DNA of 63,936 nucleotides, filler included, from an uncultured bacterium (GTDB lineage: Bacteria > DAOPZR01), in assembly GCA_964637655.1 (NCBI GenBank). It is 6 parts of 6 records of this genome, joined end to end, with 100 filler letters (N's around TTAATTAATTAA, not from the genome) between each part and the next. Parts side by side here need not be neighbours in the genome. Positions count along the whole stretch, not along the records: positions 46,575 to 57,935 come from CAZWUZ010000112.1; 5 more parts are not named here. The stretch is one strand, 5' to 3'. How positions within the stretch are numbered: position 1 is the first letter of the stretch; each line of letters opens with the position of its first letter. Made by a program: the position numbers and the translations under genes. Below, one piece after another: positions 6,013-57,083 of the stretch. Below the pieces are notes generated by a model. That model made no database searches. It saw nothing but the letters and a program-made list of their open reading frames with translations, and was not told the origin of the DNA.

Positions 6013-8334
6013 CTACCCTTCACCGCTGGTGAGTTTGGCGAGGACGTTGAAGTCCTCGAGCGTGGTGGTGTCACCCGTCACTTCGGTGCCTGCGGCGATC
6101 TGCTTGAGCAGGCGGCGCATGATCTTCCCCGAGCGCGTCTTGGGGAGCGCCTGCGCGAACCTGATCTCGTCCGGCTTCGCCACCGGCCCGATCTCCTCCG
6201 CCACGTGCCGGCGCAGCTTTTCGCGCAGCGCGTCATCGTGCGGAATGCCGTCCTTCGCGGTAACGAACGCGACGATGGCTGAGCCCTTGCTGTCGTCGGG
6301 CCGTCCGACCACCGCGGCCTCGGTCACCAGTTTCGAGCCGACCAGCGACGACTCCACCTCGGCAGTGCCGATGCGGTGCCCCGAGACATTGAGCACGTCA
6401 TCGATGCGCCCCATGATGGAGAAATAGCCGTCCGTATCGCAGCGCGCGCCATCCCCGGTGAAATAGCAGCCCTCCACCTCGGTCCAGTACGTCCATTCAT
6501 AACGCTCGTGGTCGCCCCAGACCCCGCGCAGCATCGACGGCCACGGCTGGCGGATGACGAGTTTGCCACCCGTGCCAACGGGAACCTTCTCCCCCTTGTC
6601 GTCGACCACCTCGGGGAGCACGCCGAAGAACGGCTTGCCCGCGCTCCCCGGCTTCATCGCCATCGCCCCGGGCATGGTGGAAATCATGATGGCACCCGTC
6701 TCGGTCTGCCACCAGGTGTCGACCACCGGACAGCGGTCGGCACCGATATGTTTGCGGTACCAGAGCCACGCCTCGGGATTGATCGGCTCACCCACCGTGC
6801 CAAGCAGGCGCAGCGACGAAAGATCGTGCTTTGCCGGCCACTGGTCACCCCACTGCATGAAGGCGCGGATAGCCGTCGGCGCGGTGTAGAGTATTGTCGC
6901 CTTGTGGCGCGCGATAATCGACCAGAAACGGTCGGGTTCAGGCCAGTTGGGCGCGCCCTCGTAGAGCAGGATGGTGGCGCCATTGCTGAGCAGGCCATAG
7001 ACCACGTAGGTATGCCCCGTGATCCAACCGATATCGGCGGTGCAGAAATAGATGTCGTCCGGCTGCAGGTCGAAATAGCAGCGGGCGCTGAGGGTCGCCC
7101 CGAGCAGGTAGCCCGCGGTCGAATGGAATATCCCTTTCGGCTTGCCGGTGGAGCCGCTGGTATAGAGAATGAAGAGCGGCGTCTCGCTCTCCACCGGCAC
7201 CGCCGGGCAGTCATCAGTAACTCGCGCCTCCTCCTCATGCCACCAGAGGTCGCGTCCCGCCTGCATCGGGATTGCCGCCCCGGTGCGGCGCAGGACGATG
7301 ACCTTTTCCACACTGTCGCACAACTGCTCGCCACGCTCATCCTTCAGGGCGAACGCCTCATCCACCGCCGCCTTGAGCGGCACGATTTTACCGCGACGGT
7401 AGCCGCCGTCAGCAGTGACGATGACCGACGCGGCGCAATCGCTGACGCGGTCGGCAATGGCCTGCGCGCTGAACCCGCCGAAAACAACGGAGTGGATGGC
7501 GCCCAGGCGGGCGCAGGCGAGCATCGCGATGGCCGCTTCGGGGACCATCGGCAGGTAGATGAGGACACGGTCCCCCTGTCTGACCCCCTGCGCTTTGAGG
7601 ACATTGGCGAAGCGTGACACCTGCGCATGCAGCTCGCGATAGGTGATGCGGCGCACCTCTTTCCCGTCGCTGTCCGGCTCCCCCTCCCAGATAATGGCGA
7701 CCTTGTCCGCCACCGGCGTAGCGAGGTGGCGGTCGAGGCAGTTGGCCGCGGCATTGAGTGTGCCGCCGCTGAACCAGCGCACGCGCGGCGACTTCCAGTC
7801 GAGCACCTTCGTCCACGGCTGCTGCCACTGCAGGTTTTCCTGCGCCATGCGCGCCCAGAATTGTTCCGGTTGACTGATGGACTCCTCGTACAGCGCGGCA
7901 TATTCCTCAGCACTGATGCGGGCGCGCGCGGCGAATGCCGCCGGCGGAGCGAAGACCGGCTCGGCATGCGCGGCCACCTCGATGGTCGCCGCCTGGTCGA
8001 GGCCGGAGAGTTTGAGCAGGTCGGCGATGGCGGTCGATGCGCCGGTGATGGCGAAGTTTTCGCGTCCCGCGCGCTTGGCAGCGATAACGCAGAGACGCAG
8101 GAAGAGCGACGAGGCATAGGTGAGTGCGGAAAGATCGAAGACGATGCGCAGCGGCTGCGTGTCTGCAGCATGCGCCTGCGCCTGCGCGGCAACGGTGAGC
8201 GCGCCCCCCTGCCCGGTGATTGCCGCCAGCTGCGCAGTGAAGGCCTTGCTCATCGGCCCGACATTGCTCGCGTCGACCCGCGCGGGGAAGACACAGGTCA
8301 GGGTGCGGCTGTCAGCCGCAAAGCGCATCTGCAT
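6013..8334 (-). CDS. acs: Acetate--CoA ligase with N-terminal STAS domain
   Basis: [33 protein letters not shown]-terminal [18 protein letters not shown]...[17 protein letters not shown] before ATG 8334. Confidence 0.93.
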
Positions 8335-8363
8335 CGGGCACCTCGTCGTGGTCGCAGCGCACG

Positions 8364-10604
8364 TCAACCGTGCAGGTACATGAAGACCTTTTCCGGTGTC
8401 AGCGGCAGCGACGGGATGTCGCGGTCATGGCGTACGGCGCGCAAGGAATGCCAAAGGGCGAAGTAGGCGCCCAGTCCGTGAATGAAGGGGGGTTCCCCCA
8501 CCGCCTTCGATTTCGCCACGGCAAACGGATTTTCCGAATCGGGGAGCAGCGTGATGTTGAACTGCCGCGGCACGAACTTGATGTCGGGCACCTTGTAGGC
8601 ATTGACCGCGGTGAGTACCCGCCCGTCAGGCGCATAGCGTATCTGCTCGATGGTCGCCCAGCCGATGCCCTGAATGACCGCCCCCTCCACCTGCCCGCGG
8701 TCGATGGCTTCGCTCAGCGTCTGCCCGACGTCATGCACCACGTCAACTGCTTCGATGGTATAGGTGCCGCGCACGGTATCGAGCAGCACTTCGGTAAGCG
8801 AGGTGCCGTAGGCGTAGTAGGCGAACGGGCGCCCGCGCTCGGTCTTGAGGTCGTGAAAGAGATCGGGCGTGGCATAGAAGGCATGCGACCCGAGGTCAAC
8901 CCGCGCCCACTGCGCCGCCGCGATCAGTTTCTCCCAGTTCAGTTCCGTCGGCACGCCGTTTTCCAGCACGACATTGTCGGCGATGCTCAGGTCCTTCGCC
9001 TCCATCTTCAGGTGCTGCGCGGCAAACTGCACGAGCCGCGTGCGCAGTTCGTCGCAGGCGTACTTCGCCGCCATGCCGTTGAGGTCAGCCCCCGTGCTGG
9101 CCGAGGTGGGCGAAGCGTTGGCGACGCGCATGGTGTTGGTCGTCTCGACCATGACACGGTCCGGGGTCACCCCGAGCGTCTGCGCAGCAATCAACTGGAT
9201 CTTGGTGTTGACCCCCTGCCCCATCTCGACTGCGCCCGTGCTGACCGCGACACTGCCATCGACGTAGATGTTGACCAGTGCCCCCGCCTGATTGAGCGCG
9301 GTCTGGGCAAACGAAATGCCGAAACAGACCGGGACGATGCCGAGCCCGCGCTTCGTCGCGGTGTGGGTGCGATTGTATTCCGCCACCGCCTGCAGGCGCT
9401 GAGCGACATTTGCTTTCTGTTCCAGCGTCTCCCAGCAGCGGACAGCGGTCGGCTTGGGCGGCTGCACTCCGTATGGCAGCGAATCGCCGTCACGCAGCAG
9501 GTTCTGCTTCTTGACCTCGACAATGTCCTTGCCCAGCAATTCCGCCGCGCGGGTCAGCGCCGCTTCGATAGCGAAGGTCCCCTGCGGCACCCCGAACCCG
9601 CGGAAGGCATTGTTGGGCGGAATATTGGTGCGGCAACTCACCGCCGTGATGCGGATATTCGGCACGCGATACGAGCCCGAGGCATGCAGGAAGGAGCGCC
9701 CGAGCACCGCGGTGGAGATATCGGCGCAGGCACCCGCATGCTGATAGAGGGTCACTTCAAAGGCGCGGATATTCCCCTCGGCATCGAGTCCCATCTTGTA
9801 GTCGTACTCGTAGGCATGGCGCTTCCCCGTGGTGAAAATGTCCTCGTTGCGTGAGAGGAATAGTTTCACCGGCTGCTTGAGGATAAACGCCGCCATCGCG
9901 GGCGCCACCACCCAGACCGCCGTCGATTCCTTGCCGCCAAAGCCGCCGCCGAGACGGCGGATTTCGAATTCCACCTTGTGCTGCGGGATGCCGCAGACCT
10001 CGGCAATATGGCGGTGATACGCGCCGGGTGCCTGACTGCTGGCGATGACCTTGATGGTGTCGTGTTCACCGGGGAGCGCTAACGCTCTCTGTGTTTCAAA
10101 GTAAAAGTGCTCCTGCGGGCCGCTGGCCAGTTTTCCCTCGGCGATTACTTTGCACTGCGCGAACGCCGCGGCGATGTCGCCATTGACCAGTTCGCGCTTC
10201 TGCCCGTGGATGAGGCCGCGCTGCGCTGCTTCGCGTGGACTAAAGAGCGGCTCGCGCTTGTCGATTACGGCAGTGATCAGTTTCACCGCACGCTGCGCCG
10301 CACGGCGCGACTTCGCCACGACCAGGGCAATCGGCTGCCCGATGTACTCGAGGGTGTCGATGGCCAGCAGCGGCTGGTCCTTGAAGATATGGCCGACCTC
10401 GTTGAGCCCGGGGACGTCCTTCGCCGTGTAAACCGCCACCACGCCGGGCGCTGACGTCGCCGCGCTGATGTCAACACTGCGCAGCGTGCCGCAGGCAACG
10501 GGTGAGGTGAACAACACCGCGTGCAGGCAGCCCGCGGGGGTCGGGATATCGTCGACAAATTGCGACGTGCCGCGCACGTGCATAAGCATGTCGCCATTCT
10601 TCAT
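8364..10604 (-). CDS. xdhB: Xanthine dehydrogenase molybdopterin-binding subunit
   Basis: [41 protein letters not shown]. Confidence 0.92.
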
Positions 10605-46721: not shown

Positions 46722-47690
46722 TCACAGCAACACCGTATCAGCACGGTCGAGCACCGCGGGCGGCAGCATCAGGCCGCACCCCGCAGCCGCCCTGCGGTTG
46801 ACGATCAGCAGCGAGCGGCTGTTACGCGCCACCGGCAGGTCACGCGGCTGCCCGCCGCGCAGGATGCGCGCCGCGAGCTCTGCCGCCATCCGTCCCGCAT
46901 CGACGCAGTCGCGCGAATAGGTCAGCACCGCTCCCTGCGCCGCCTGGTCGGAGGCGAAGGCAAAAAGCGGGAGGCGCGCCGCCCGCGCCGCCGCCGCTAC
47001 CGCCGGAAACGCCGTGGCGCTGGCATTGTCAGCAAGCTGGCAGATGAGGTCGGGGCGTTCCATCACCAGCGCGCGCGCCGCCTCAGGCACTTCGAGCGCG
47101 GTTGGCGCCGGCTGCGCCAGCAGTTCCATGCCCTGCACTGCCAGCGCCGCGGCGAACTGCTCACGGCAGAGCACGGAGTTATCCTCCGCCGGGGAAAAGA
47201 CCGTACCGACCCGCCGGGTTGACGGCATGATTTCGCGGATCAGCGCGGCCATGCCGGCACAGTCACCGATGAGCGCCACCCCGGTGAAGTTCGGCAAATG
47301 GTCGGTATCACTCCGCCCCATCCCCGCGCCGCACGGGTCGGCATTGATTGCCACCACCGGGATGTCGCGGATATGGCTGATCGCCGCCTGCATCGCCGGG
47401 GTCGACGAGGTAACGATGACGTCGGGGCGCGCGTCGCGCGCTCCCGCCAGCAGCGTGTTGAGCGCGCCGATATCCCCCTGCGCGCTTTTGCAGGTCAGTA
47501 CGTAGTCGGTGCCTGCGCGCAGCCCGGTGGCCGGCAGCCCGGCCACGAAACCGGCGCGGCATTCCTCGGCGATGGGCACATCAAAGAACTGCACCCAGAG
47601 AATCTGCTTCGCCGCGGACGCGGCCGGCTGTTCCCCGCACCCGGCACAGAGCAACAGGCCGCACAGCAGTGCGGCCCGGAAGGTGGTCAC
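46722..47690 (-). CDS. ABC transporter substrate-binding lipoprotein
   Basis: Lipobox CAGC, SAQGD, STPAMQA, NFTGV, VFSPAEDNS. Confidence 0.85.
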   Translation of the reverse strand: MTTFRAALLCGLLLCAGCGEQPAASAAKQILWVQFFDVPIAEECRAGFVAGLPATGLRAGTDYVLTCKSAQGDIGALNTLLAGARDARPDVIVTSSTPAMQAAISHIRDIPVVAINADPCGAGMGRSDTDHLPNFTGVALIGDCAGMAALIREIMPSTRRVGTVFSPAEDNSVLCREQFAAALAVQGMELLAQPAPTALEVPEAARALVMERPDLICQLADNASATAFPAVAAAARAARLPLFAFASDQAAQGAVLTYSRDCVDAGRMAAELAARILRGGQPRDLPVARNSRSLLIVNRRAAAGCGLMLPPAVLDRADTVLL

Positions 47691-48883
47691 TGCCGCACGC
47701 GCATCCCCTGCAGCAGCTGCGGCAGGTACCAGACCTGTGCTTCGATTGCTTCCTCGCCGTCAGCGAGGAACGGGGTGCCGTCACGGAAATTGAGCGGGCC
47801 GCGGAACGGCACGATACGGCGGGCGTCAAGTTCGGCAGCGTAGCGGTCGAGCGCCGCCGTCATGGCCGGTGTCAGCGCCGCCCCGCGCACAAAGCCGATG
47901 CTGGGGTCGTTGCGCGACGGCCAGTGCGCGCCGGGCAGCATGAACTGCTGCCGCCAGTATCCCCCCTCCGCCATCTGTGCCAGTTCCAGGTAGGCCGGCC
48001 CCCAGTTGAAATAGGGGATGCCGAGTGACACCTCCGCCGCCGCACGGTCAGCACGATGGTAATCATAGGGCACGGCCAGTACCGGGTTCCCCGCGGCATG
48101 CAGTTTGCCCGCCTCGACCAGCACCTCGCTGGTGTTGATCCCCGAGATAACCACATCGCAACCATCCGCGGCAAAATCGCGCGTCAGAACTGCCGGGTCG
48201 AGTGTCTGCCCCGGGATGTGGAACCAGTAGCCGATCCACGCGACCGTAAACTCCAGGTCCGCCGCGTCGCGCTGCCGTTCGTACACCCAGGCATGGCGCG
48301 CCCCGAGGTAGGTGGCGGCAGCGAGGCGGCGCGCCTCGGCGTTGTCCATCGGCCCGACGTAACCGAGTTTACCCGTCTGTGTCGCCATACCCGCGGCAAA
48401 ACCAGCGAGGTTCTTGCCGTATTCCATGCGCCCCATGACATTGCTGACATTTGCCGGCGCCCGGAAATTTCTGCCGTCAGCCCACGCCTCATCACTGCCG
48501 ACAGAGACAAAGTAGAGGTCGGGACGCGCCTGCGCCGCGGCGAGTACCCCGTCGGCGAAATCCGCCGACGCGGCGATGATCAGTTTCGCCCCCTGCGCCG
48601 CGAGCGAGTCGGCCGCCATGGCCACGGTCATCCCCGGCCGGGCGGCGCGATTGAGATTGTCGAGCACCAGCAGACGCATGTCCGGTCGGTTCCGCTCGAC
48701 ATAGCGCCCGCCGGCACAATGCGCCGCCCCCCAGCCGTCATCGTCCGCCGCGCCCGGCAGAATGATGCCGAAGGTAAACGTGTCCGTCTGCACCGGCGCT
48801 GCCGGCGGTACCGGCTCACGCCCGCACGCGCAGAGCAGCATAACCAGCAGCACCGGCAGCGACCATCGCCACATCATGTTCAT
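47687..48883 (-). CDS. BMP-family substrate-binding lipoprotein
   Basis: Lipobox LCAC, DDGWGAAH, WIGYWF, PYFNWGP, WYLPQLLQG. Confidence 0.85.
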   Translation of the reverse strand: MNMMWRWSLPVLLVMLLCACGREPVPPAAPVQTDTFTFGIILPGAADDDGWGAAHCAGGRYVERNRPDMRLLVLDNLNRAARPGMTVAMAADSLAAQGAKLIIAASADFADGVLAAAQARPDLYFVSVGSDEAWADGRNFRAPANVSNVMGRMEYGKNLAGFAAGMATQTGKLGYVGPMDNAEARRLAAATYLGARHAWVYERQRDAADLEFTVAWIGYWFHIPGQTLDPAVLTRDFAADGCDVVISGINTSEVLVEAGKLHAAGNPVLAVPYDYHRADRAAAEVSLGIPYFNWGPAYLELAQMAEGGYWRQQFMLPGAHWPSRNDPSIGFVRGAALTPAMTAALDRYAAELDARRIVPFRGPLNFRDGTPFLADGEEAIEAQVWYLPQLLQGMRVRQ

Positions 48884-48960: not shown

Positions 48961-49455
48961 TCAGTCGCGCTGCGGCCAGAGTCCCTCTGTTGCGATGCAA
49001 TACGTCATGGCCACGCAGGGCGAGCGGTTGCTGACCGTCCTGCTGATGTCACCCGGCAGGGCGACGCGCAGCACCGCGGTATCACCGTCACGCGCCGCAC
49101 ACACCGTCACGTCTTTCGGCTGGAAGGCCTGATACGTCAGTTTGCTGCGCCCGCCGTCCTGCCCGACACGGTTCATCCCTGCCACCGTCGGCGACGGCAT
49201 CACCGGGGTGCGTCCGCGCAGATCAGGCAACGCGAAGTTCACCCGGCCGTCACCGCCGTACATCGTTCCCAGCAACGCGAACAGTGCCTGGTACTCGACG
49301 ATGGGGACCAGCCGCCCGTCGCAAGGCAGCCATCCGTAGGGCACGAAGGTTCCCGCGAACAGCATGATTTCACCGTAGTACGGGTTTTCCGCCGCCGCCG
49401 CCGGCAGTGCCGCGGCCAGCACCAGCGCCATGCTCAGCATCATAATCCTGTTCAT
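48961..49455 (-). CDS. Tail-collar domain protein (MdpB-like) with signal peptide, copy 3
   Basis: GEIMLFAGTFVPYGWLPCDG...FALPDLRGR; CIATEGLWP; N-terminal signal peptide. Confidence 0.9.
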   Translation of the reverse strand: MNRIMMLSMALVLAAALPAAAAENPYYGEIMLFAGTFVPYGWLPCDGRLVPIVEYQALFALLGTMYGGDGRVNFALPDLRGRTPVMPSPTVAGMNRVGQDGGRSKLTYQAFQPKDVTVCAARDGDTAVLRVALPGDISRTVSNRSPCVAMTYCIATEGLWPQRD

Positions 49456-49492
49456 ATCATTCTCCTGTCAGGTTGAGTGTCGTGCGCACCAT

Positions 49493-49996
49493 TTACTGGC
49501 GCATCGGGTATATCCCTTCAAGCGCGATAAAATAGCCGATACACTGGTACGGGGCGTGGTTGTTCACCGCCTTGTTCTGGTCGGCAGGCAGCGGCAGGCG
49601 CACCAGTTCAGTGTCAGCGCCGGCATCCATGCGCACCGCCTGCTCCGTCAGCCCGAATTCCTTGAACGCCACCGCCGTGCTCCCCGCCTTCTGTCCCGGG
49701 ACAAAATATTCGCCATCCCGCATCGCGCCGGTACCCACCGGCACCCGCCCGCGCAGGTCGGGCAGCGCAAAATTCGACCGTCCATCGCCGCCATAGGTGG
49801 TCCCGAGCAGCGAGAAGAGTGCGGTGTTTCTCGCAATCGGCAGCAGGCGCCCGTCACAGCGCGCCCAGCCGCGCGGTTCATAATCGCCGCTGAACAGCAT
49901 GATTTCGCCGAGGGTCGGCTCCGCCGCCCCCTGCGCCTGCGTCATCGTTCCCGCCGCCACTGCCAGCAGCAGTGTCAGCATCAGTATTCTGTGCAT
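49493..49996 (-). CDS. Tail-collar domain protein with signal peptide, copy 2
   Basis: GEIMLFSGDYEPRGWARCDG...FALPDLRGR; FIALEGIYP; AAGGA RBS before ATG 49996. Confidence 0.9.
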   Translation of the reverse strand: MHRILMLTLLLAVAAGTMTQAQGAAEPTLGEIMLFSGDYEPRGWARCDGRLLPIARNTALFSLLGTTYGGDGRSNFALPDLRGRVPVGTGAMRDGEYFVPGQKAGSTAVAFKEFGLTEQAVRMDAGADTELVRLPLPADQNKAVNNHAPYQCIGYFIALEGIYPMRQ

Positions 49997-50015
49997 GATG
50001 GTTTCCTTTCTCCGT

Positions 50016-50522
50016 TCAGTTGCGCGACGGGTAGATACCGGCAGTCGCGATGTAGTAGCCGATACACAGGTACGGCGAAAGATTGTCCGCGGGCACCGGC
50101 GCCTGCGCGTCCGGCACCGGCAGGTGCACGACCGCGGTGTCCGACGTGGTGGCCGCGCGCACCGCGACCGGAGCCACGCCGAAGTCGGTGTAACGGATGG
50201 TCGCACTGCCGCCCGTCTGTGCCAGCTGATACTCGCCGCCGTCAGCGGCGCGCCCGGAACCGACCGCCTCCCGGCCGCGCAGGTCGGGCAGCGCAAAGTT
50301 CGTCTGCCCGTTGCCGCCGAAGCGCGTGCCGATGATCGAGTAAAGTGCCTGATTCTGATTGATCGGCAGCAGGCGCCCGTCGCAGGGGAGCCACCCCTTC
50401 GGCGCATAGTTGCCGGCAAAGATCATCACTTCCCCCAGCAGCGGTTCATCAGCTGCCGTTGCCGCCGTCGCCCAGACGGCAAGCAGTGCCGCCAGTGAAC
50501 ACAACATCAGCCATCGTTGCAT
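50016..50522 (-). CDS. Tail-collar domain protein with signal peptide, copy 1
   Basis: GEVMIFAGNYAPKGWLPCDG...FALPDLRGR; YIATAGIYPSRN; GGAGG RBS. Confidence 0.9.
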   Translation of the reverse strand: MQRWLMLCSLAALLAVWATAATAADEPLLGEVMIFAGNYAPKGWLPCDGRLLPINQNQALYSIIGTRFGGNGQTNFALPDLRGREAVGSGRAADGGEYQLAQTGGSATIRYTDFGVAPVAVRAATTSDTAVVHLPVPDAQAPVPADNLSPYLCIGYYIATAGIYPSRN

Positions 50523-50576: not shown

Positions 50577-51836
50577 CTATTCCGTGACGGCAAGCACCAC
50601 GCCGACACCGACCGTGCGCCCGCCATCGCGCACGCTGAAGTGCAGGCCCGGCGCCAGAACCACCGGCGTGGTGAGCGCAACCGCGACTTCCCCGTAGTCG
50701 CCCGGCAGCAGCATTGCCGTCCCCTCCGGCAGGGTGCAGACGCCGGTGTCCGTCGCCGTGCGGATGATAAACTGCGGACGATAGCCGCTCACCACCGGCG
50801 TGCGGCGCCCCCCCTCCTCGCGCGCCAGCCAGTAGATGTCCGCGATGAACCGCGTCGCAGTATGTACTGAGCCGGGCGCCGCGCACACCATGCCCGGCTG
50901 CAGCGCCGCTCCGGCAAGGTCGGCCAGCGTCAACGTCACCAGGTCGCCGGCCTCCCCGTGCGCCATGGCCCGACCGAACAGCTCGATGCGGGTGACGGTC
51001 GCGATGCACCCGCCCGCCCCCCCCGCCAGCACCACCGTGTCGCCGCAGCGCACCGTGCCGCGCTCGATGCGCCCGATAACGTCAACGCCGTCCCCGGACG
51101 CGGTTACCCGTTCGAGCGGCAGCAGCAGCGGTTGGTCGCGCTGCCGCGGGGCGGGCGCAAAGTCGCGGTCCATCGCCGCCAGCAGTTCCGCAATACAGCG
51201 GGTCGCCGCGGCATCCTGCGGCTGCCGCAGCGCGCGCAACGCGCTGCCGCGAATGACCGCCACCCGCTCACCGGGATAGCCGTACTGCGACAGCAGTTCC
51301 CGTACTTCCAGCTCGACCAGGTCGAGCAGTTCCGGGTCGTCGACCAGATCGACCTTGTTGAGAAACACGACGATGGCGGGAATACCCGCCTCGCGCGCGA
51401 GGATGATCTGCGCGCGGGTCTGCGGCATCGGCCCGTCGGCCGCGCTGACCACGAGTATGGCGCCATCCGCCTCGCCGCTGCCGCCAATAAATGCCTTGAC
51501 ATAATCATCATGGTGCGGGCGATCGGCGTGGGCATAGTGCCGCTCCGCCGTCTCGTATTCGACCGTCATGGTGGAGACAATCAGGCCACGTTCCCGTTCT
51601 TCGGGCGCGTGTACCAGCGCCTCATAGGGGAAGGCCATTGCCAGTCCCTGCGTTTCGAGATATGCGAGCAGGGCCGCCGTCAGCGTGGTCTTGCCATGGT
51701 CAATATGCCCGATGGTGCAGACCCGCACGTGCGGTTTGTTGCGGTCGAACCGGCCGGCACCGGCCGGCACCGGCAGTCCAGCCAGCAGTACCACACTCAG
51801 CACCGCCACCCCTGCCCGCAGGTTATGCCTGAGCAT
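50577..51836 (-). CDS. Divergent EF-Tu paralogue with predicted signal peptide and degenerate switch motifs
   Basis: KPHV..TIGHIDHGKTT, DGPMPQT, FLNKVD, GSAL, EGGR.TP, YRPQF, GGRTVG; AGGAGG RBS; 27-aa hydrophobic leader. Confidence 0.88.
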   Translation of the reverse strand: MLRHNLRAGVAVLSVVLLAGLPVPAGAGRFDRNKPHVRVCTIGHIDHGKTTLTAALLAYLETQGLAMAFPYEALVHAPEERERGLIVSTMTVEYETAERHYAHADRPHHDDYVKAFIGGSGEADGAILVVSAADGPMPQTRAQIILAREAGIPAIVVFLNKVDLVDDPELLDLVELEVRELLSQYGYPGERVAVIRGSALRALRQPQDAAATRCIAELLAAMDRDFAPAPRQRDQPLLLPLERVTASGDGVDVIGRIERGTVRCGDTVVLAGGAGGCIATVTRIELFGRAMAHGEAGDLVTLTLADLAGAALQPGMVCAAPGSVHTATRFIADIYWLAREEGGRRTPVVSGYRPQFIIRTATDTGVCTLPEGTAMLLPGDYGEVAVALTTPVVLAPGLHFSVRDGGRTVGVGVVLAVTE

Positions 51837-52653
51837 CCGCGTCCCCTCCTGATACTGTTTCTGCCCAGACGGCCGGTTCGGGCTGCGCGACGCTGCCAAG
51901 CTGCTGCTGCACGAAGGTGCGGAAACAATCGTGGGTACCGCTGACGATGAAACGCGTCGTCCCCTGCGCCTGCCGGTTCAGCAGGTTGCGCAGTTGCAGT
52001 TGCTGGCGGATATGGCGTACCGTCGGGATGCCCGGGTCGATGACCGTCATCCCCGCCGCCGGCTCGATGAGCGGACGCAAAAACGGGTAATGCGTGCAGC
52101 CGAGAATAACCGCTTCACAGCGCGCCGCCTGCAGCGGGGCGAGGTACTCCGCCACCGCCGCGCGCGCCGCGTCACCGGCGCAGGCGCACGACTCGATCAG
52201 CGGCACGAATTTCGGGCAGGGGACCGCGGCGAGCGCCACCCCGGGATGATGCCGTTGCAACGCGCGCGCGTACGCGCCGCTGTTGACCGTGCCCGTCGTC
52301 GCCAGCAGCCCGATACGTCCCGACGGTGCCGCCGCGAGGATGTCGCCGACGCTCTCGTGATTGATCAGCCCGTAAACCGGGACGTGGTACGTTTCCTGCG
52401 CCGCGGTCAGCGCCACCGCGGTCGAGACATTGCAGGCGATGACCATGGTCTTGACCTGTTGCGTGACCAGCCAGTCCATAATCTGAAAGGCGAACTGCTT
52501 GATCTGCGGCAGCGGGCGGTCACCGTACGGCACGCGCGCGGTATCAGCAACGTAGAGGTAGTCCTCGCCGGGGAGCACGCGCCACAGTTCGCGCAGCACG
52601 GAGAGTCCCCCGACGCCGGAATCGAACACCCCGATGGGTTTGCGGGTCTCCAC
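51823..52653 (-). CDS. murI: Glutamate racemase
   Basis: FDSGVGGLSV, PYG, IACN, LGCTHYP. Confidence 0.95.
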   Translation of the reverse strand: METRKPIGVFDSGVGGLSVLRELWRVLPGEDYLYVADTARVPYGDRPLPQIKQFAFQIMDWLVTQQVKTMVIACNVSTAVALTAAQETYHVPVYGLINHESVGDILAAAPSGRIGLLATTGTVNSGAYARALQRHHPGVALAAVPCPKFVPLIESCACAGDAARAAVAEYLAPLQAARCEAVILGCTHYPFLRPLIEPAAGMTVIDPGIPTVRHIRQQLQLRNLLNRQAQGTTRFIVSGTHDCFRTFVQQQLGSVAQPEPAVWAETVSGGDADAQA

Positions 52654-54190: not shown

Positions 54191-55363
54191 TTACCACTGC
54201 ACCTTGCGCATCCGTTCGAGCGCGACCGCGATGCGCTCCTCGGGCACGGTGATGGTCATGCGGATGTACCCTTCGCCGTGCTTGCCGAACCCGATGCCCG
54301 GCGTGACCACAATACCCGCCTCTTCGAGCAGGCGCGACGCCACTTCCGTCGACGGGAGCCCGCCCGGGGTCGGCAGCCAGAGGTAGAACGTCGCCCTGGG
54401 CACCGGCACCTGCCAGCCCAGTTCGCGCAATCCCGCCGCCAGCAGGTCGCGCCGCTTCTGCAGGATGGCATTGTTCTCCGCCACGCAGTCCTGCTTCCCC
54501 GTCAGCGCGGTGATGCCCGCCTCCTGCACCGCCTGGAACACCCCTGAATCGATGTTGGTCTTGATGCAGCCGAGTCCGGCAATCGCCTCCGCGTTGCCCG
54601 CGGCGAACCCGATACGCCACCCCGTCATGTTGTAGGTTTTCGACAGCGAGTGGAACTCGATGCCCACCTCGCGCGCCCCCTCGTACTCGAGGAAACTCGG
54701 GCAGCGGTAGCCGTCATACGACACCTCGGTATAGGCGGCATCGTGGCAGACGATGAGGTCGTACGTGCGCGCGAACTCGATGGTGCGCTTGAAGAATTCC
54801 GGCGGCGCGATGGCCGCCGTCGGGTTGTTCGGGTAATTGATCCAGAGCAGTTTCGCCTTGCGCGCCACCGCCGGCGGGATGGCATCGTAGTCAGGGAGGA
54901 AACCGTTTTCCGCCGTCAGCGGCATCAGGTACGACTGTCCGTTGGCAAACAGCGTGCCGATGCCGTACACCGGGTAGCCCGGGGTCGGCACCAGCACCAC
55001 GTCGCCGGGGTTGACATAGACCAGCGGCATGTGGGCGATGCCTTCCTTGCTGCCGATCAGCGAGACGATCTCCGTCTTCGGGTCGAGCGTCACCCCGAAG
55101 CGCGTCTGGTACCAGTGGCCCACCGCCTCGCGGAACGCGGGCATCCCCTCGTAGGACGGGTACTGGTGGTTGGCCGGTTTCTCCGCCGCGTGCTTGAGCG
55201 CGCGCACGATATGCGCGGGCGTCGGCAGGTCGGGGTCGCCGATACCGAAGCTGATGATGTCCACCCCGCGCGCCGCCACCGCCTGCTTCTTCTTGTCAAT
55301 TTCCGCGAACAGGTAGGGCGGCAGTTCCCGCACCCGCTCCGCCCGCTCAAACCTCGTACTCAT
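54191..55363 (-). CDS. dapL: LL-diaminopimelate aminotransferase
   Basis: [38 protein letters not shown]; clustered with dapB. Confidence 0.85.
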
Positions 55364-56144
55364 CGCCTGTATCTCCTTCCTGTACCACCGGATTTTCCAG
55401 CGTGCCGATCTGCGCGATCGTGATCCGTACCGTGTTCCCCGCCCGCAACGCCCCGACCCCGACGGGCGTTCCTGTCGCGATGACGTCACCCGCCTGCAGC
55501 GCGATGACCGCGCTGACATGCGCGATGACCGCCGCGACGGAAAAGACCAGGTGGTCGGTGCGCGCGTGCTGCTTCACCTGCCCGTCCACCGCCAGTTCCA
55601 CCGTCAGCGCCGCCGGGTCGATGCCGCCCACCACCCACGGTCCGACGGGACAGAAGGTCGGGTACGACTTGCAGCAGGTCCACTGCCCGTCGCGTTTCTG
55701 CAGGTCGCGCGCGGTCACATCGTTCAAACAGGTGTAGCCGAGCACGTGCGCCAGCGCGTCCGCTTCCGGGATGCGCCAGCCGCCCGTGCCGATAACCGCC
55801 GCCAGTTCCGCCTCGTAATCGACCCGCCCGATCCCGTGCGGGATGATGATCTTCTCCCCCGGTCCGATGACCGCGCTTGGCGACTTCCAGAAGATCACCG
55901 GCGCCGCGGGCCGCTCCATGCCCAGTTCGTCCGCATGGTCGGTGTAGTTCAGACCGACCCCGAAAATACGCGGCGGGTCGACCGGGGCCGCCAGCATCAC
56001 CTCCGCCAGCGGCAGCCGCGTCCCCGTGCGCAGGTCGTCAGTATAGTCATGGAACGGGTCGCGCCGCAGCGGCACCACCTCGTCGCCGGAAAGCAGCCCC
56101 CAGCGGGGCGCCGCGCCGCGGTAGCGGAACCGGACGTATTTCAC
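55347..56144 (-). CDS. Fumarylacetoacetate hydrolase family protein
   Basis: [27 protein letters not shown]. Confidence 0.9.
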
Positions 56145-56917
56145 CGCAGCCCGAGCACCGCCTGCATGTCGTACAGGCCGCGCTTCGCCCGCTTCGCCCA
56201 GACCGCCGCCCGCACCGCGCCGCGCGCGAACGCGTCGCGGCTGTGCGCGCGATGGGTCAGTTCGAGGCGCTCGTTCTCGCCGCAGAACATCACGGGATGC
56301 TCGCCGATGATGTCACCCGCGCGCACCGCAAAAACGCCGATTTCGCCCTCCGTGCGCGCGCCGACCATGCCGTCGCGCCCCGTGCGCCGCGCCTTCGCCG
56401 GGTCGAGTTTCCGCCCGCGCGCCGCCGCGTTGAGCAGCCCGATGGCCGTCCCCGACGGGGCATCCTTCTTCAGCCGGTGATGCGCCTCGACAATTTCGAT
56501 ATCATAGCCCGCGCCCAGCGCCTGCGCCACCTTTTCCGTCAGGTTGAACAGCAAGTTGACGCCCAGACTCATGTTCGGCGCCTCGACCACGGGAATCTTC
56601 GCCGCCGCCTTCTTCAGCGCCGCCTTCTCCTTCGCCCCCAGCCCGGTTGTGCCGACCACCAGCGGCAGACCCAGTTTCGCGCAGGCCGCCGCATTCGCAG
56701 CAGCAGCAGCAGCAGCCGAGAAATCGATCACCGCGTCAGGTTTGAGCACCGCGCATGCCGCCAGCGAGCCACGCACCGGCACCCCGTCGAGTTCCCTGCC
56801 GCACAACGGGTGTGCGGGCGACTCGACTCCGCCCACCACCGCGTGGTTCGCCGCGCGTGCGCAGGCCACCAGCCGCTGCCCCATTTTGCCGGCAATCCCG
56901 CAGATAATCAGTCGCAT
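56141..56917 (-). CDS. dapB: 4-hydroxy-tetrahydrodipicolinate reductase
   Basis: GIAGKMG, GTTG, EAHHRLKKDAPSGTA, R.GDIIGEH. Confidence 0.96.
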   Translation of the reverse strand: MRLIICGIAGKMGQRLVACARAANHAVVGGVESPAHPLCGRELDGVPVRGSLAACAVLKPDAVIDFSAAAAAAANAAACAKLGLPLVVGTTGLGAKEKAALKKAAAKIPVVEAPNMSLGVNLLFNLTEKVAQALGAGYDIEIVEAHHRLKKDAPSGTAIGLLNAAARGRKLDPAKARRTGRDGMVGARTEGEIGVFAVRAGDIIGEHPVMFCGENERLELTHRAHSRDAFARGAVRAAVWAKRAKRGLYDMQAVLGLR

Positions 56918-56973
56918 GGTGAGTGTGCCCCCTCCCCGAATGATGGCCAATCCGTAACTGTTCAGCCAGTACG

Positions 56974-57083
56974 TTTCCTCTCCCCGGGGGAGAGGGCGAC
57001 GCGCAGCGTCGGGAGGGGCCGCGTCCATCCATGCCATCCCTCACTTGCCGCTGCGCGGCTTCCTCGCCCGGCGGGAGAGGAAA
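56974..57083. repeat. REP-like inverted repeat pair (CCTCTCCC/GGGAGAGG type) in dapB leader
   Basis: TTTCCTCTCCC (56974-56984) and GGGAGAGGAAA (57073-57083) with internal GC hairpins. Confidence 0.7.

What the first reader, a model, noticed from the sequence alone, without database searches (positions are those of the whole stretch)
51750..51851. EF-Tu homologue with an N-terminal signal peptide
Seen: AGGAGG-9nt-ATG gives MLRHNLRAGVAVLSVVLLAGLPVPAGA-GRFDRNKPHV, a basic/hydrophobic/AxA leader joined exactly where EF-Tu normally begins. There is no ATG at the usual start; the only alternative is a GTG at 51770 with a weak SD. Known: EF-Tu is cytoplasmic, and surface moonlighting copies lack signal peptides. 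Inference: a dedicated exported EF-Tu-like protein. I know of no characterised example.
Basis: partly seen in the sequence, partly recalled or inferred. Interest (0 to 1): 0.85.

Follow-up and report, generated by a model that had tools for sequence, protein, structure and literature searches.

The report
EF-Tu paralogue with an export signal
An uncultured bacterium carries an extra, altered copy of the protein-synthesis factor EF-Tu that starts with a secretion signal and has lost key GTPase residues, and a few similar copies occur in other uncultured bacteria, which suggests an undescribed role for this protein fold outside the cytoplasm.

Summary
On the minus strand, AGGAGG lies 8 nt before ATG 51836 and opens a 419-aa ORF (stop 50577). 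A 27-residue leader (basic start, hydrophobic core, Ala-x-Ala end) joins directly to the normal EF-Tu N-terminus. This ATG is by far the best start. The leader is as hydrophobic as the neighbouring genes' signal peptides and unlike the sequence upstream of 30 canonical tuf genes.

The protein is not a working EF-Tu. It scores below the EF-Tu equivalog cutoff and changes 59 of 187 columns that are invariant in 113 canonical EF-Tus, including the switch I Thr and the switch II Gly.

It has no close orthologue. However, at least 9 of 150 EF-Tu-like cluster representatives also carry Sec- or Tat-type leaders at the same junction, and all score below the EF-Tu equivalog cutoff.

Best reading (0.6): a Sec-exported EF-Tu-derived pseudoGTPase, probably co-transcribed with three secreted tail-collar proteins; its function in the envelope is unknown.

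Not tested: export itself, expression, and whether the same genome has a canonical tuf. Six literature searches found no description.

The parts
51845..51850 (-). Shine-Dalgarno AGGAGG, 8 nt upstream of the ATG
   Evidence: anti-SD duplex -10.8 kcal/mol, within the best 1.4% of window positions
51756..51836 (-). Codons 1-27: Sec-type signal peptide. Basic start (Arg3, His4, Arg7), 12-residue hydrophobic core followed by prolines, then Ala-Gly-Ala. Predicted cleavage after Ala25 or Ala27.
   Evidence: modelled as unstructured with pLDDT under 50
51165..51737 (-). GTP_EFTU G domain (residues 34-224). P-loop, NKxD and SAL motifs are kept.
   Evidence: Pfam PF00009, E 2.5e-44; motif table
51579..51581 (-). 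Codon 86, ATT (Ile), at the place of the invariant switch I Thr (E. coli Thr61)
   Evidence: numbering offset of 25 taken
51513..51515 (-). Codon 108, CAC (His), at the place of the invariant switch II Gly of DxxG (E. coli Gly83)
50886..51080 (-). EF-Tu domain 2 (residues 253-317), strongly diverged
   Evidence: Pfam PF03144, 25.3 bits, below the 30.3 cutoff; several invariant columns changed
50586..50870 (-). EF-Tu domain 3 (residues 323-417)
   Evidence: Pfam PF03143, E 3.5e-23
50577..50579 (-). TAG stop codon of the EF-Tu-like gene
51823..52653 (-). Glutamate racemase (murI) directly upstream. Its stop lies 11 nt inside the EF-Tu-like ORF, a 14-nt overlap, so the two are probably co-transcribed and translationally coupled (inference).
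50016..50522 (-). Collar A: 168-aa Phage Tail Collar domain protein with a signal peptide; 54 nt downstream of the EF-Tu-like stop
   Evidence: Pfam PF07484, E 2.1e-28; leader features; SD
49493..49996 (-). Collar B: 167-aa Phage Tail Collar domain protein with a signal peptide
48961..49455 (-). Collar C: 164-aa Phage Tail Collar domain protein with a signal peptide
46722..48883 (-). Two ABC-transporter substrate-binding proteins on the same strand, with hydrophobic leaders ending in Cys (lipoprotein-like by eye)
   Evidence: Pfam Bmp and ABC_sub_bind; N-termini

Best explanation
The gene encodes a paralogue derived from EF-Tu that is made with a cleavable Sec-type signal peptide and works outside the cytoplasm, not in translation.

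Proposed mechanism:
1. Translation starts at ATG 51836, probably coupled to the end of murI (inferred from the SD and the overlap).
2. The very hydrophobic leader takes the chain to SecYEG, perhaps co-translationally (inferred).
3. Signal peptidase I cuts after Ala25 or Ala27 and releases a protein whose N-terminus lies within three residues of the normal EF-Tu N-terminus (inferred).
4. The mature three-domain protein keeps the EF-Tu fold and the nucleotide-pocket motifs G1, G4 and G5. It lacks the switch I Thr and the switch II Gly, and its aminoacyl-tRNA pocket is remodelled. It therefore cannot run a GTP-driven switch or carry tRNA (shown at sequence level; the consequence follows from textbook knowledge of GTPases).
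5. It acts as a nucleotide-independent binding or scaffold protein of the cell envelope, expressed together with three secreted tail-collar (receptor-binding-like) proteins (the weakest step; inferred from gene order only).

It is one instance of a rare, recurrent design: EF-Tu-like proteins with Sec or Tat leaders and decayed GTPase motifs.
For: Start codon: the SD duplex is -10.8 kcal/mol for ATG 51836 and -3.3 for GTG 51770; only 1.4% of window positions reach -9.0 or lower. All four cassette genes start at ATG preceded by an SD.

Leader:
- Hydrophobicity is 2.87, against 2.53-2.86 for the collar signal peptides and 1.37-1.49 for cytoplasmic neighbours.
- Upstream of 30 canonical tuf genes the maximum is 1.38, and 24 of 30 have a stop.
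- The hydrophobic core is only 12 residues and is followed by Pro-Val-Pro. This suits a signal peptide rather than a membrane helix (interpretation recalled).

Not a translation factor:
- TIGR00485 gives 447.7 bits against a cutoff of 522.4.
- 59 of 187 columns invariant in 113 canonical EF-Tus are changed; each canonical row changes at most 4, mean 0.26.
- The changes include T61I, G83H and H66T in E. coli numbering.
- The fold is kept: AF2 mean pLDDT 81.1, with low confidence only at residues 1-27, 79-88 and 119-121.

The gene is under constraint: a 207-nt contig 90% identical to the window has 10 codons with silent changes and 5 with replacements, and it keeps residues specific to this paralogue.

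Recurrence:
- Among the best 150 of 24,280 representative hits, 9 carry signal-like leaders fused at the canonical N-terminus: P0168, P0173, P0177, P0193, P0204, P0209, P0211, P0238 and P0246.
- All 9 score below the EF-Tu equivalog cutoff, at 321-511 bits.
- The 8 of them that were aligned, plus a near-identical relative of P0168 and P0001 itself, each have at least one decayed G motif, whereas 37 canonical rows are intact.
- The leader of P0168 passes the curated Tat-signal model, 21.0 bits against 16.7.
- Its relative in locus L106 has GGGAGGAG 5 nt before the ATG and in-frame stops upstream, and I saw no ATG, GTG or TTG codon between the twin arginines and the P-loop.
- The two variants differ at 38 of 434 residues, with 3 of those in residues 1-38 and 0 in residues 1-16.

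Neighbourhood: three secreted collar genes follow at gaps of 54, 19 and 37 nt, then two lipoprotein-like binding proteins.
Against: - No experiment and no trained predictor supports export; no SignalP was available.
- The first 15 mature residues have net charge +3, against -2 to -3 for the collar proteins. From memory, basic residues just after the cleavage site hinder Sec export in E. coli. The Sec-type relatives share this basic start.
- No orthologue of this protein was found, so conservation of its own leader could not be tested. Searches: 5.8 billion clustered proteins, 1.84 billion representatives, and samples of 201, 401, 401, 14, 351 and 351 genomes (two of these samples come from one phylum).
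- A canonical tuf in the same organism is unverified. The window holds only this one EF-Tu-like locus.
- Whether the leader-bearing proteins form one family is unresolved. A quick tree of 79 rows joined six of them, including this one (SH-aLRT 95). A quick tree of 42 rows did not.
- The link to the collar proteins is not general. The relative in L106 lies between an adenylosuccinate lyase gene and a short-chain dehydrogenase gene, with no collar gene on its 3.5-kb contig.
- All relatives are singletons or pairs from metagenomes.
Confidence: 0.6

Rival explanations
1. Cytoplasmic divergent EF-Tu paralogue. Translation starts at an internal GTG (51770 or another), the upstream hydrophobic stretch is not made, and the protein has some specialised or regulatory role in the cytoplasm.
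For: Four in-frame GTG codons lie inside the leader. A start at GTG 51770 would give a protein only 2 residues longer than canonical EF-Tu. The basic early mature region is unfavourable for Sec export (rule recalled). P-loop, NKxD and SAL motifs are intact, so nucleotide binding is possible.
Against: The internal GTGs have weak or no SD (-2.5 to -7.0 kcal/mol; -3.3 for 51770) against -10.8 for the ATG. This reading leaves unexplained an open, stop-free, signal-peptide-like stretch of a kind not seen upstream of 30 canonical tuf genes. The same leader-plus-EF-Tu design recurs elsewhere, and in L106 no later start codon was seen.
Confidence: 0.12
2. Membrane-tethered protein. The leader is made but not cleaved and acts as a signal anchor that holds the EF-Tu-like body at the membrane, on either face.
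For: Positive charges flank both sides of the hydrophobic segment: Arg3, His4 and Arg7 before it and a net +3 after it, so topology and cleavage are ambiguous. The hydrophobicity is high, at 2.87.
Against: The uninterrupted hydrophobic core is only 12 residues and is followed by Pro-Val-Pro-Ala-Gly-Ala, a typical cleavage region. Four Sec-type relatives (P0204, P0209, P0211, P0238) likewise end in small residues just before the canonical N-terminus. The Tat-type relatives argue for full translocation of the body.
Confidence: 0.13
3. Decaying duplicate. A tuf copy that picked up an upstream hydrophobic extension by accident and is drifting without function; the other examples are similar accidents.
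For: The lost motifs differ from protein to protein. All examples are rare singletons or pairs. No orthologue of this one was found. Monophyly is unresolved.
Against: The 419-codon frame is intact with no frameshift, and the alignment to EF-Tu is full length. The fold is confidently modelled. A 90%-identical variant shows 10 silent and 5 replacement codons. The P0168 pair keeps its leader as well as its body. A strong SD and an Ala-x-Ala junction at the exact N-terminus in several independent proteins are not expected from drift.
Confidence: 0.08

Closest known systems
Canonical bacterial EF-Tu (tuf; NCBIfam TIGR00485)
   Same: Same three domains in the same order, alignable end to end at 52-57% identity. 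P-loop, NKxD and SAL motifs are kept.
   Different: It has an N-terminal signal peptide and no Met at the canonical start. Its score is below the equivalog cutoff. 59 of 187 invariant columns are changed, including the switch I Thr, the switch II Gly and the His that (from memory) contacts the aminoacyl group. It lies next to murI and secreted-protein genes, with no other EF-Tu-like or translation gene found in the window.
Surface-exposed 'moonlighting' EF-Tu of many bacteria
   Same: An EF-Tu fold located outside the cytoplasmic membrane.
   Different: Moonlighting EF-Tu is the ordinary translation factor. A review describes it as a conventionally cytosolic protein that lacks a signal sequence and whose secretion route is debated (PMC6822514, passages read). 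Here a separate gene has a classical leader and a body unfit for translation.
Organellar EF-Tu precursors with N-terminal targeting peptides
   Same: EF-Tu with a cleavable N-terminal targeting extension. Solved mitochondrial chains of 452-455 aa align with the query from residue 15, and six of the 150 representatives carry leaders that look like transit peptides by eye.
   Different: Those are working translation factors imported into an organelle, with non-hydrophobic leaders (12-residue hydrophobicity 0.94-1.37). Here the gene context is bacterial, the leader has a hydrophobic core, and the GTPase switches are lost.
Divergent cytoplasmic EF-Tu paralogues such as Streptomyces EF-Tu3 (tuf3), recalled from memory
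   Same: An extra, divergent tuf-derived gene beside the housekeeping copy or copies.
   Different: As far as I recall, EF-Tu3 has no signal peptide and is an active elongation factor. I did not check this here; only listed papers that mention tuf3.
PseudoGTPases (general concept)
   Same: A GTPase fold kept while catalytic or switch motifs are lost.
   Different: In none of the searches below did I find an exported, EF-Tu-derived example.

Membership tests
EF-Tu (TIGR00485 equivalog) | Three domains: GTP_EFTU, domain 2, domain 3 | tested here: met
   Pfam PF00009 at 151.5 bits and PF03143 at 82.4 bits. PF03144 reaches only 25.3 bits, below its 30.3 cutoff. The AF2 model shows the full fold.
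EF-Tu (TIGR00485 equivalog) | Score at or above the curated equivalog cutoff | tested here: not met
   447.7 bits against 522.4. Two looser subfamily models are passed by under 1 bit: 452.7 against 452 and 449.4 against 449.
EF-Tu (TIGR00485 equivalog) | Intact G1-G5 motifs, including the switch I Thr and the switch II DxxG | tested here: not met
   G1, G4 and G5 are kept. Thr is replaced by Ile at codon 86 and Gly by His at codon 108. All 37 canonical rows in the same alignment are intact.
EF-Tu (TIGR00485 equivalog) | Conserved aminoacyl-tRNA pocket in domains 1 and 2 | tested here: not met
   Changes at columns invariant in 113 canonical sequences, including H66T, a deleted Phe and several charge changes in the first strand of domain 2. 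The functional role of these residues is recalled.
EF-Tu (TIGR00485 equivalog) | Acts in translation; usually in or near the str/S10 operon or next to tRNA genes | not testable with these tools
   The context is murI upstream and secreted collar genes downstream. Activity needs an assay.
Type I (Sec, signal peptidase I) signal peptide | Positively charged n-region | tested here: met
   Two Arg, one His and no acidic residue before the core.
Type I (Sec, signal peptidase I) signal peptide | Hydrophobic core of about 7-15 residues | tested here: met
   12-residue window with mean 2.87, equal to the secreted neighbours. Controls reach at most 1.38.
Type I (Sec, signal peptidase I) signal peptide | Small residues at -3 and -1, with a helix breaker before them | tested here: met
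   Pro-Val-Pro-Ala-Gly-Ala, then Gly. Two sites fit, after Ala25 or after Ala27.
Type I (Sec, signal peptidase I) signal peptide | Neutral or acidic early mature region | tested here: not met
   Net +3 over the first 15 mature residues, against -2 to -3 for the collar proteins.
Type I (Sec, signal peptidase I) signal peptide | Positive call by a trained predictor, or shown export | not testable with these tools
Tat (twin-arginine) signal | Twin-arginine motif before the hydrophobic core | tested here: not met
   No Arg-Arg in the window's leader. Relative P0168 does pass TIGR01409, at 21.0 bits against 16.7. P0246 reaches 14.8, and P0173 and P0193 have no hit.
Lipoprotein (signal peptidase II) signal | Lipobox Cys at the end of the leader | tested here: not met
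   No Cys in residues 1-39.
Known anti-phage defence proteins (PADLOC) | Match to any PADLOC model | tested here: not met
   0 families for P0001, the three collar proteins, P0168 and P0204.

The most novel reading that the evidence does not exclude
This protein and the other leader-bearing EF-Tu-likes form an undescribed, phylogenetically scattered class of Sec- or Tat-exported EF-Tu-derived pseudoGTPases, kept by selection for a nucleotide-independent job in the cell envelope. That job could be a hard-wired version of 'moonlighting' surface EF-Tu (a dedicated adhesin or binding module). It could also be a periplasmic decoy that captures agents which normally target cytoplasmic EF-Tu, such as interbacterial toxins, elfamycin-type antibiotics or phage proteins. 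The varied decay of the GTPase motifs would follow from life in a compartment without GTP.
Probability: 0.4. Interest if true: 0.85.

Novelty: new variant of a known kind. Interest (0 to 1): 0.68.

Why it matters
EF-Tu is one of the most conserved and most studied proteins, and it is regarded as strictly cytoplasmic. Its frequent appearance on cell surfaces is explained by 'non-classical' secretion or lysis, and that explanation is still debated (PMC6822514, passages read).

A separate gene that gives the EF-Tu fold a classical export signal while the GTPase and tRNA-binding determinants decay would show that evolution has, more than once, put this fold to work outside the cell membrane. That would provide a clean system for asking what the EF-Tu fold does there. 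It would be free of the essential translation role that makes the housekeeping protein hard to study genetically.

There is also a practical point. Annotation pipelines name these proteins 'elongation factor Tu' or 'GTP-binding protein'. That inflates tuf copy counts and can mislead marker-gene analyses.

Tried and rejected
- Whole genome of the window: none is held, so a canonical tuf in the same organism could not be sought.
- Complex prediction of the mature EF-Tu-like protein with the three mature collar proteins: score 0.00, verdict 'no answer'. This is not evidence either way.
- Sequencing runs: no RNA holder was listed, so there is no evidence on expression. The DNA contigs laid were low-depth and, apart from one 207-nt piece, identical to the window, so they gave no variation in the leader.
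- Profile search with six leader-bearing proteins: swamped by canonical EF-Tu, with no new member. P0275, P0285 and P0321 were inspected and are canonical.
- ESM Atlas: only ordinary EF-Tu clusters.
- Metagenome scan with P0168: 25 loci. One is a true relative (L106). I inspected 17 of the other 24, and all were canonical by their N-termini.
- Viral contig scans with P0001, P0204, P0209, P0193 and P0211: only canonical tuf or nothing.
- Plasmid tblastn: 86 records, all under 60% identity; those listed are ordinary tuf or unannotated.
- Genome surveys for an orthologue of P0001:
  - 74 of 201 genomes matched at E <= 1e-60. The full-length matches were at the canonical level, 48-52% identity. 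This tally includes the unpublished genomes G106 and G157.
  - 0 of 401, 0 of 401, 0 of 14, 0 of 351 and 0 of 351 genomes matched at E <= 1e-133. Searches sampled the same phylum.
  - These are 'not found in those searched', not 'absent'.
- Taxonomy of the window: the DapL scan gave at most 65% identity, spread over several phyla. Four-gene synteny with two Methylomirabilota MAGs was not backed by closer EF-Tu similarity. The closest relatives of collar A are distant. The phylum is left open.
- Careful tree: not finished after 479 s on one CPU; no AU test was run.
- Promoter and terminator scan: counts no higher than in shuffles.
- PADLOC: no match.
- Pfam TAT_signal on P0168 was below its cutoff, at 18.8 bits against 22.7. 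The NCBIfam Tat model passed.
- Literature searches: searches found no paper on exported EF-Tu paralogues. The Omnitrophota preprint was read at its EF-Tu passages and is unrelated. Supplementary files were not consulted.
Full report
WHAT IS THERE

The finding's coordinates cover the 5' end of a minus-strand gene. On that strand the sequence reads AGGAGG (51850-51845), an 8-nt spacer, then ATG (51836), followed by a 419-codon frame ending at TAG 50579-50577. NCBIfam EF-Tu models then align from residue 28/29 to model position 4/5 and run to the C-terminus. Pfam finds the three EF-Tu domains.

Three small corrections apply. The gene is on the minus strand. The spacer is 8 nt, not 9. GTG 51770 is one of several in-frame alternatives: GTG also at 51809, 51803, 51794 and 51728, and TTG at 51899. 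Codon 25, which aligns with the canonical initiator Met, is GCC.

IS THE LEADER TRANSLATED, AND IS IT MORE THAN CHANCE?

I scored pairing of the 17 bases upstream of each candidate start with a generic anti-SD (a motif recalled from memory). ATG 51836 gives -10.8 kcal/mol, GTG 51770 gives -3.3, and the others range from +0.4 to -7.0. Of 8858 sampled positions in the window, 1.4% reach -9.0 or lower.

The stop of the upstream glutamate racemase gene (51823-52653; Pfam Asp_Glu_race) lies inside the first codons of the ORF. This arrangement is typical of translational coupling (inference).

The best 12-residue hydrophobicity of the leader is 2.87. The three genes downstream have obvious signal peptides scoring 2.53-2.86, and cytoplasmic MurI, DapL and FolK score 1.37-1.49. 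The highest value was 1.38, the mean was 0.05, and 24 of 30 contained a stop.

The uninterrupted hydrophobic core is 12 residues long. It is followed by Pro-Val-Pro-Ala-Gly-Ala, which offers two sites that fit the -3/-1 rule, after Ala25 or Ala27. There is no twin arginine and no Cys, so it is neither a Tat signal nor a lipoprotein signal.

One feature does not fit. The first 15 mature residues carry net charge +3, whereas the collar proteins have -2 to -3. From memory, such charges hinder Sec export in E. coli.

The junction is not an assembly artefact. Short contigs from three public DNA runs span it without a difference. They belong to one study that may be the window's source.

IT IS NOT A WORKING EF-Tu

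- The equivalog model TIGR00485 gives 447.7 bits against a cutoff of 522.4.
- In the 5.8-billion-cluster protein search, the 119 other listed hits were 46-58% identical. The ones I inspected were ordinary EF-Tus, and the three longest were assembly duplications.
- I aligned P0001 with 113 of these hits. Six rows were dropped: three with duplications and three longer than 400 aa. P0001 changes 59 of the 187 columns invariant among the 113. Each canonical row, tested against the others, changes at most 4, with a mean of 0.26.
- Solved E. coli chains give the numbering 'P0001 position minus 25'. On that numbering the changes include Thr61 to Ile, Gly83 to His and His66 to Thr, plus a deleted Phe and charge reversals in the first strand of domain 2.
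- By textbook knowledge of GTPases, the switch I Thr and the switch II Gly are the two residues that sense the gamma-phosphate. Without them there is no GTP-driven switch.
- The P-loop, NKxD and SAL motifs are intact, so binding of a nucleotide remains possible.
- AlphaFold2 on a 54-row alignment models the full fold: mean pLDDT 81.1 and pTM 0.73. Confidence is low only for the leader (1-27), switch I (79-88) and residues 119-121.
- A 207-nt contig from run X3 is 90% identical to codons 142-210. Of the 17 differences listed (out of 20), 10 codons change silently and 5 change the residue, and residues specific to this paralogue are kept. This is a small sample from one low-depth contig, but it suggests purifying selection rather than decay.

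NO ORTHOLOGUE, BUT A RECURRENT DESIGN

No protein closer than canonical EF-Tu was found in any of these searches:
- the clustered protein database;
- the exhaustive search of 1.84 billion representatives;
- genome samples of several phyla (74 of 201 genomes matched, and the full-length matches were at the canonical level; 0 of 401, 401, 14, 351 and 351 at E <= 1e-133, with two samples from one phylum);
- viral contigs and plasmids.

The representative search collapses ordinary EF-Tus, and so it exposed divergent relatives. Among the best 150 of 24,280 hits, a script flagged 18 with 12-80 extra N-terminal residues.

- Eight of these have a hydrophobic, signal-like leader: P0173, P0177, P0193, P0204, P0209, P0211, P0238 and P0246. 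The script missed a ninth, P0168, which I saw by eye.
- The other ten either have non-hydrophobic extensions (six look like transit peptides by eye) or are ambiguous (P0266).
- In P0204, P0209, P0211 and P0238 the leader ends in small residues directly before the canonical Ala/Gln-Lys-Glu-Lys-Phe type N-terminus, and no Met stands at the canonical start.
- P0168, P0173, P0193 and P0246 have Arg-Arg motifs. The curated Tat model TIGR01409 is passed by P0168 (21.0 bits against 16.7), nearly by P0246 (14.8), and not matched by the other two. Pfam's Tat model was below its cutoff for P0168.
- All 9 score below the EF-Tu equivalog cutoff, at 321-511 bits.
- In an alignment, all ten leader-bearing rows (P0001, eight of the nine, and P0271) have at least one decayed G motif, and the motifs lost differ from protein to protein. 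The 37 canonical rows are intact.

For P0168 a metagenome scan returned locus L106, whose product is identical to cluster member P0271. There GGGAGGAG stands 5 nt before the ATG and in-frame stops lie just upstream. I saw no ATG, GTG or TTG codon between the twin arginines and the P-loop, so the leader must be part of the protein. The two variants differ at 38 of 434 residues: 3 within residues 1-38 and none within residues 1-16. The leader is therefore conserved as well as the body.

Whether these proteins share one origin is open. A quick tree of 79 rows joined six of them, including P0001, with SH-aLRT 95. A quick tree of 42 rows did not, and the careful search did not finish. All are singletons or pairs at 90% identity, and all come from metagenomes.

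NEIGHBOURHOOD

Upstream on the same strand are dapB, an FAH-family gene, dapL, folK, a deoxynucleoside kinase, a MerR-like ORF and murI.

Downstream, at gaps of 54, 19 and 37 nt, are three paralogous 164-168-aa Phage Tail Collar domain proteins. Each has an ATG, an SD and a signal peptide. PHROGs matches them to tail and tail-fibre families. Two substrate-binding proteins with lipoprotein-like leaders follow. This looks like a cassette of envelope proteins placed after murI.

The link is not general. L106 has an adenylosuccinate lyase gene and a short-chain dehydrogenase gene as neighbours, and no collar gene on its 3.5-kb contig. A complex prediction of the mature protein with the three collar proteins gave no answer, and I do not count it either way. 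No PADLOC defence model matches.

HOW IT MOST LIKELY WORKS

Shown at sequence level:
- a favoured start that includes a signal-peptide-like leader;
- an intact EF-Tu fold;
- loss of the switch residues and of tRNA-pocket residues;
- a hint of constraint on the coding sequence;
- recurrence of the design with both Sec- and Tat-type leaders.

Inferred:
- Sec-dependent export, possibly co-translational given the very hydrophobic core;
- cleavage at Ala25 or Ala27;
- a nucleotide-independent binding or scaffold role in the envelope, possibly together with the collar proteins.

The varied decay of GTPase motifs across the class is what one would expect after a move to a compartment without GTP (inference). 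I put 0.6 on export of a soluble pseudoGTPase, 0.13 on an uncleaved membrane anchor, 0.12 on a cytoplasmic protein started at an internal GTG, and 0.08 on a drifting duplicate.

COMPARISON WITH WHAT IS KNOWN

The protein belongs to the EF-Tu superfamily by fold and sequence. It fails the equivalog test and two defining motif tests, so I do not file it as EF-Tu.

Surface 'moonlighting' EF-Tu is the housekeeping protein, and a review describes it as lacking a signal sequence (PMC6822514, passages read). Organellar EF-Tu precursors have targeting peptides but are active factors.

Full-text searches for EF-Tu paralogues or homologues together with signal peptide, periplasm, twin-arginine or pseudoGTPase found no description of an exported paralogue. 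A search on tail collar domain proteins gave no link to EF-Tu. These searches cover open-access papers and bioRxiv only, and supplements were closed.

VERDICT

The case is a new variant of a known kind. Its interest rests on the recurrence of the design and on how unexpected an export signal is on this protein. It is limited by the lack of any experimental evidence, by the rarity of the examples, and by the unknown function.

Noticed in passing
window 48961-50522, minus strand: Three tandem paralogous Phage Tail Collar domain genes of 164-168 aa, 43-50% identical to one another. Each has its own signal peptide and SD, and there is no other phage gene nearby. Homologues are abundant in metagenomes and are often named 'microcystin-dependent protein', but none is close: at most 64% identity over about a third of the protein.
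   Followed up: partly
window 46722-48883, minus strand: Two ABC substrate-binding proteins whose leaders end in Cys-containing, lipobox-like stretches. If they are lipoproteins, this may say something about the cell envelope type of the unidentified host.
   Followed up: no
proteins P0121-P0270: The 50%-identity representative library holds many divergent EF-Tu-like proteins without leaders, for example P0203, P0136, P0164 and P0142, which have altered P-loops or switch motifs. It also holds very long proteins with an EF-Tu-like part (P0135 at 2376 aa, P0147 at 1816 aa). None was examined further.
   Followed up: no
window 54191-57037 versus loci L001 and L004: The gene order dapB, FAH-family gene, dapL, folK is shared with two Methylomirabilota MAGs at 33-64% protein identity. 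No sampled genome is a close relative of the window's organism, and DapL reaches at most 65% identity to any species representative found.
   Followed up: partly
window 6013-8367, minus strand: The longest ORF for acetyl-CoA synthetase is 784 aa, but the family model matches only from residue 132. The true start is probably downstream of the first in-frame start codon.
   Followed up: no
proteins P0002, P0003, P0004, P0275: Database 'EF-Tu' entries of 425-502 aa contain internally duplicated segments. They are most likely assembly artefacts at the two near-identical tuf copies of one genome.
   Followed up: partly
viral contig loci L103-L105 and L131-L180: Dozens of IMG/VR contigs carry ordinary tuf genes, often at a contig end. 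This is consistent with host DNA at prophage borders rather than phage-encoded EF-Tu.
   Followed up: partly
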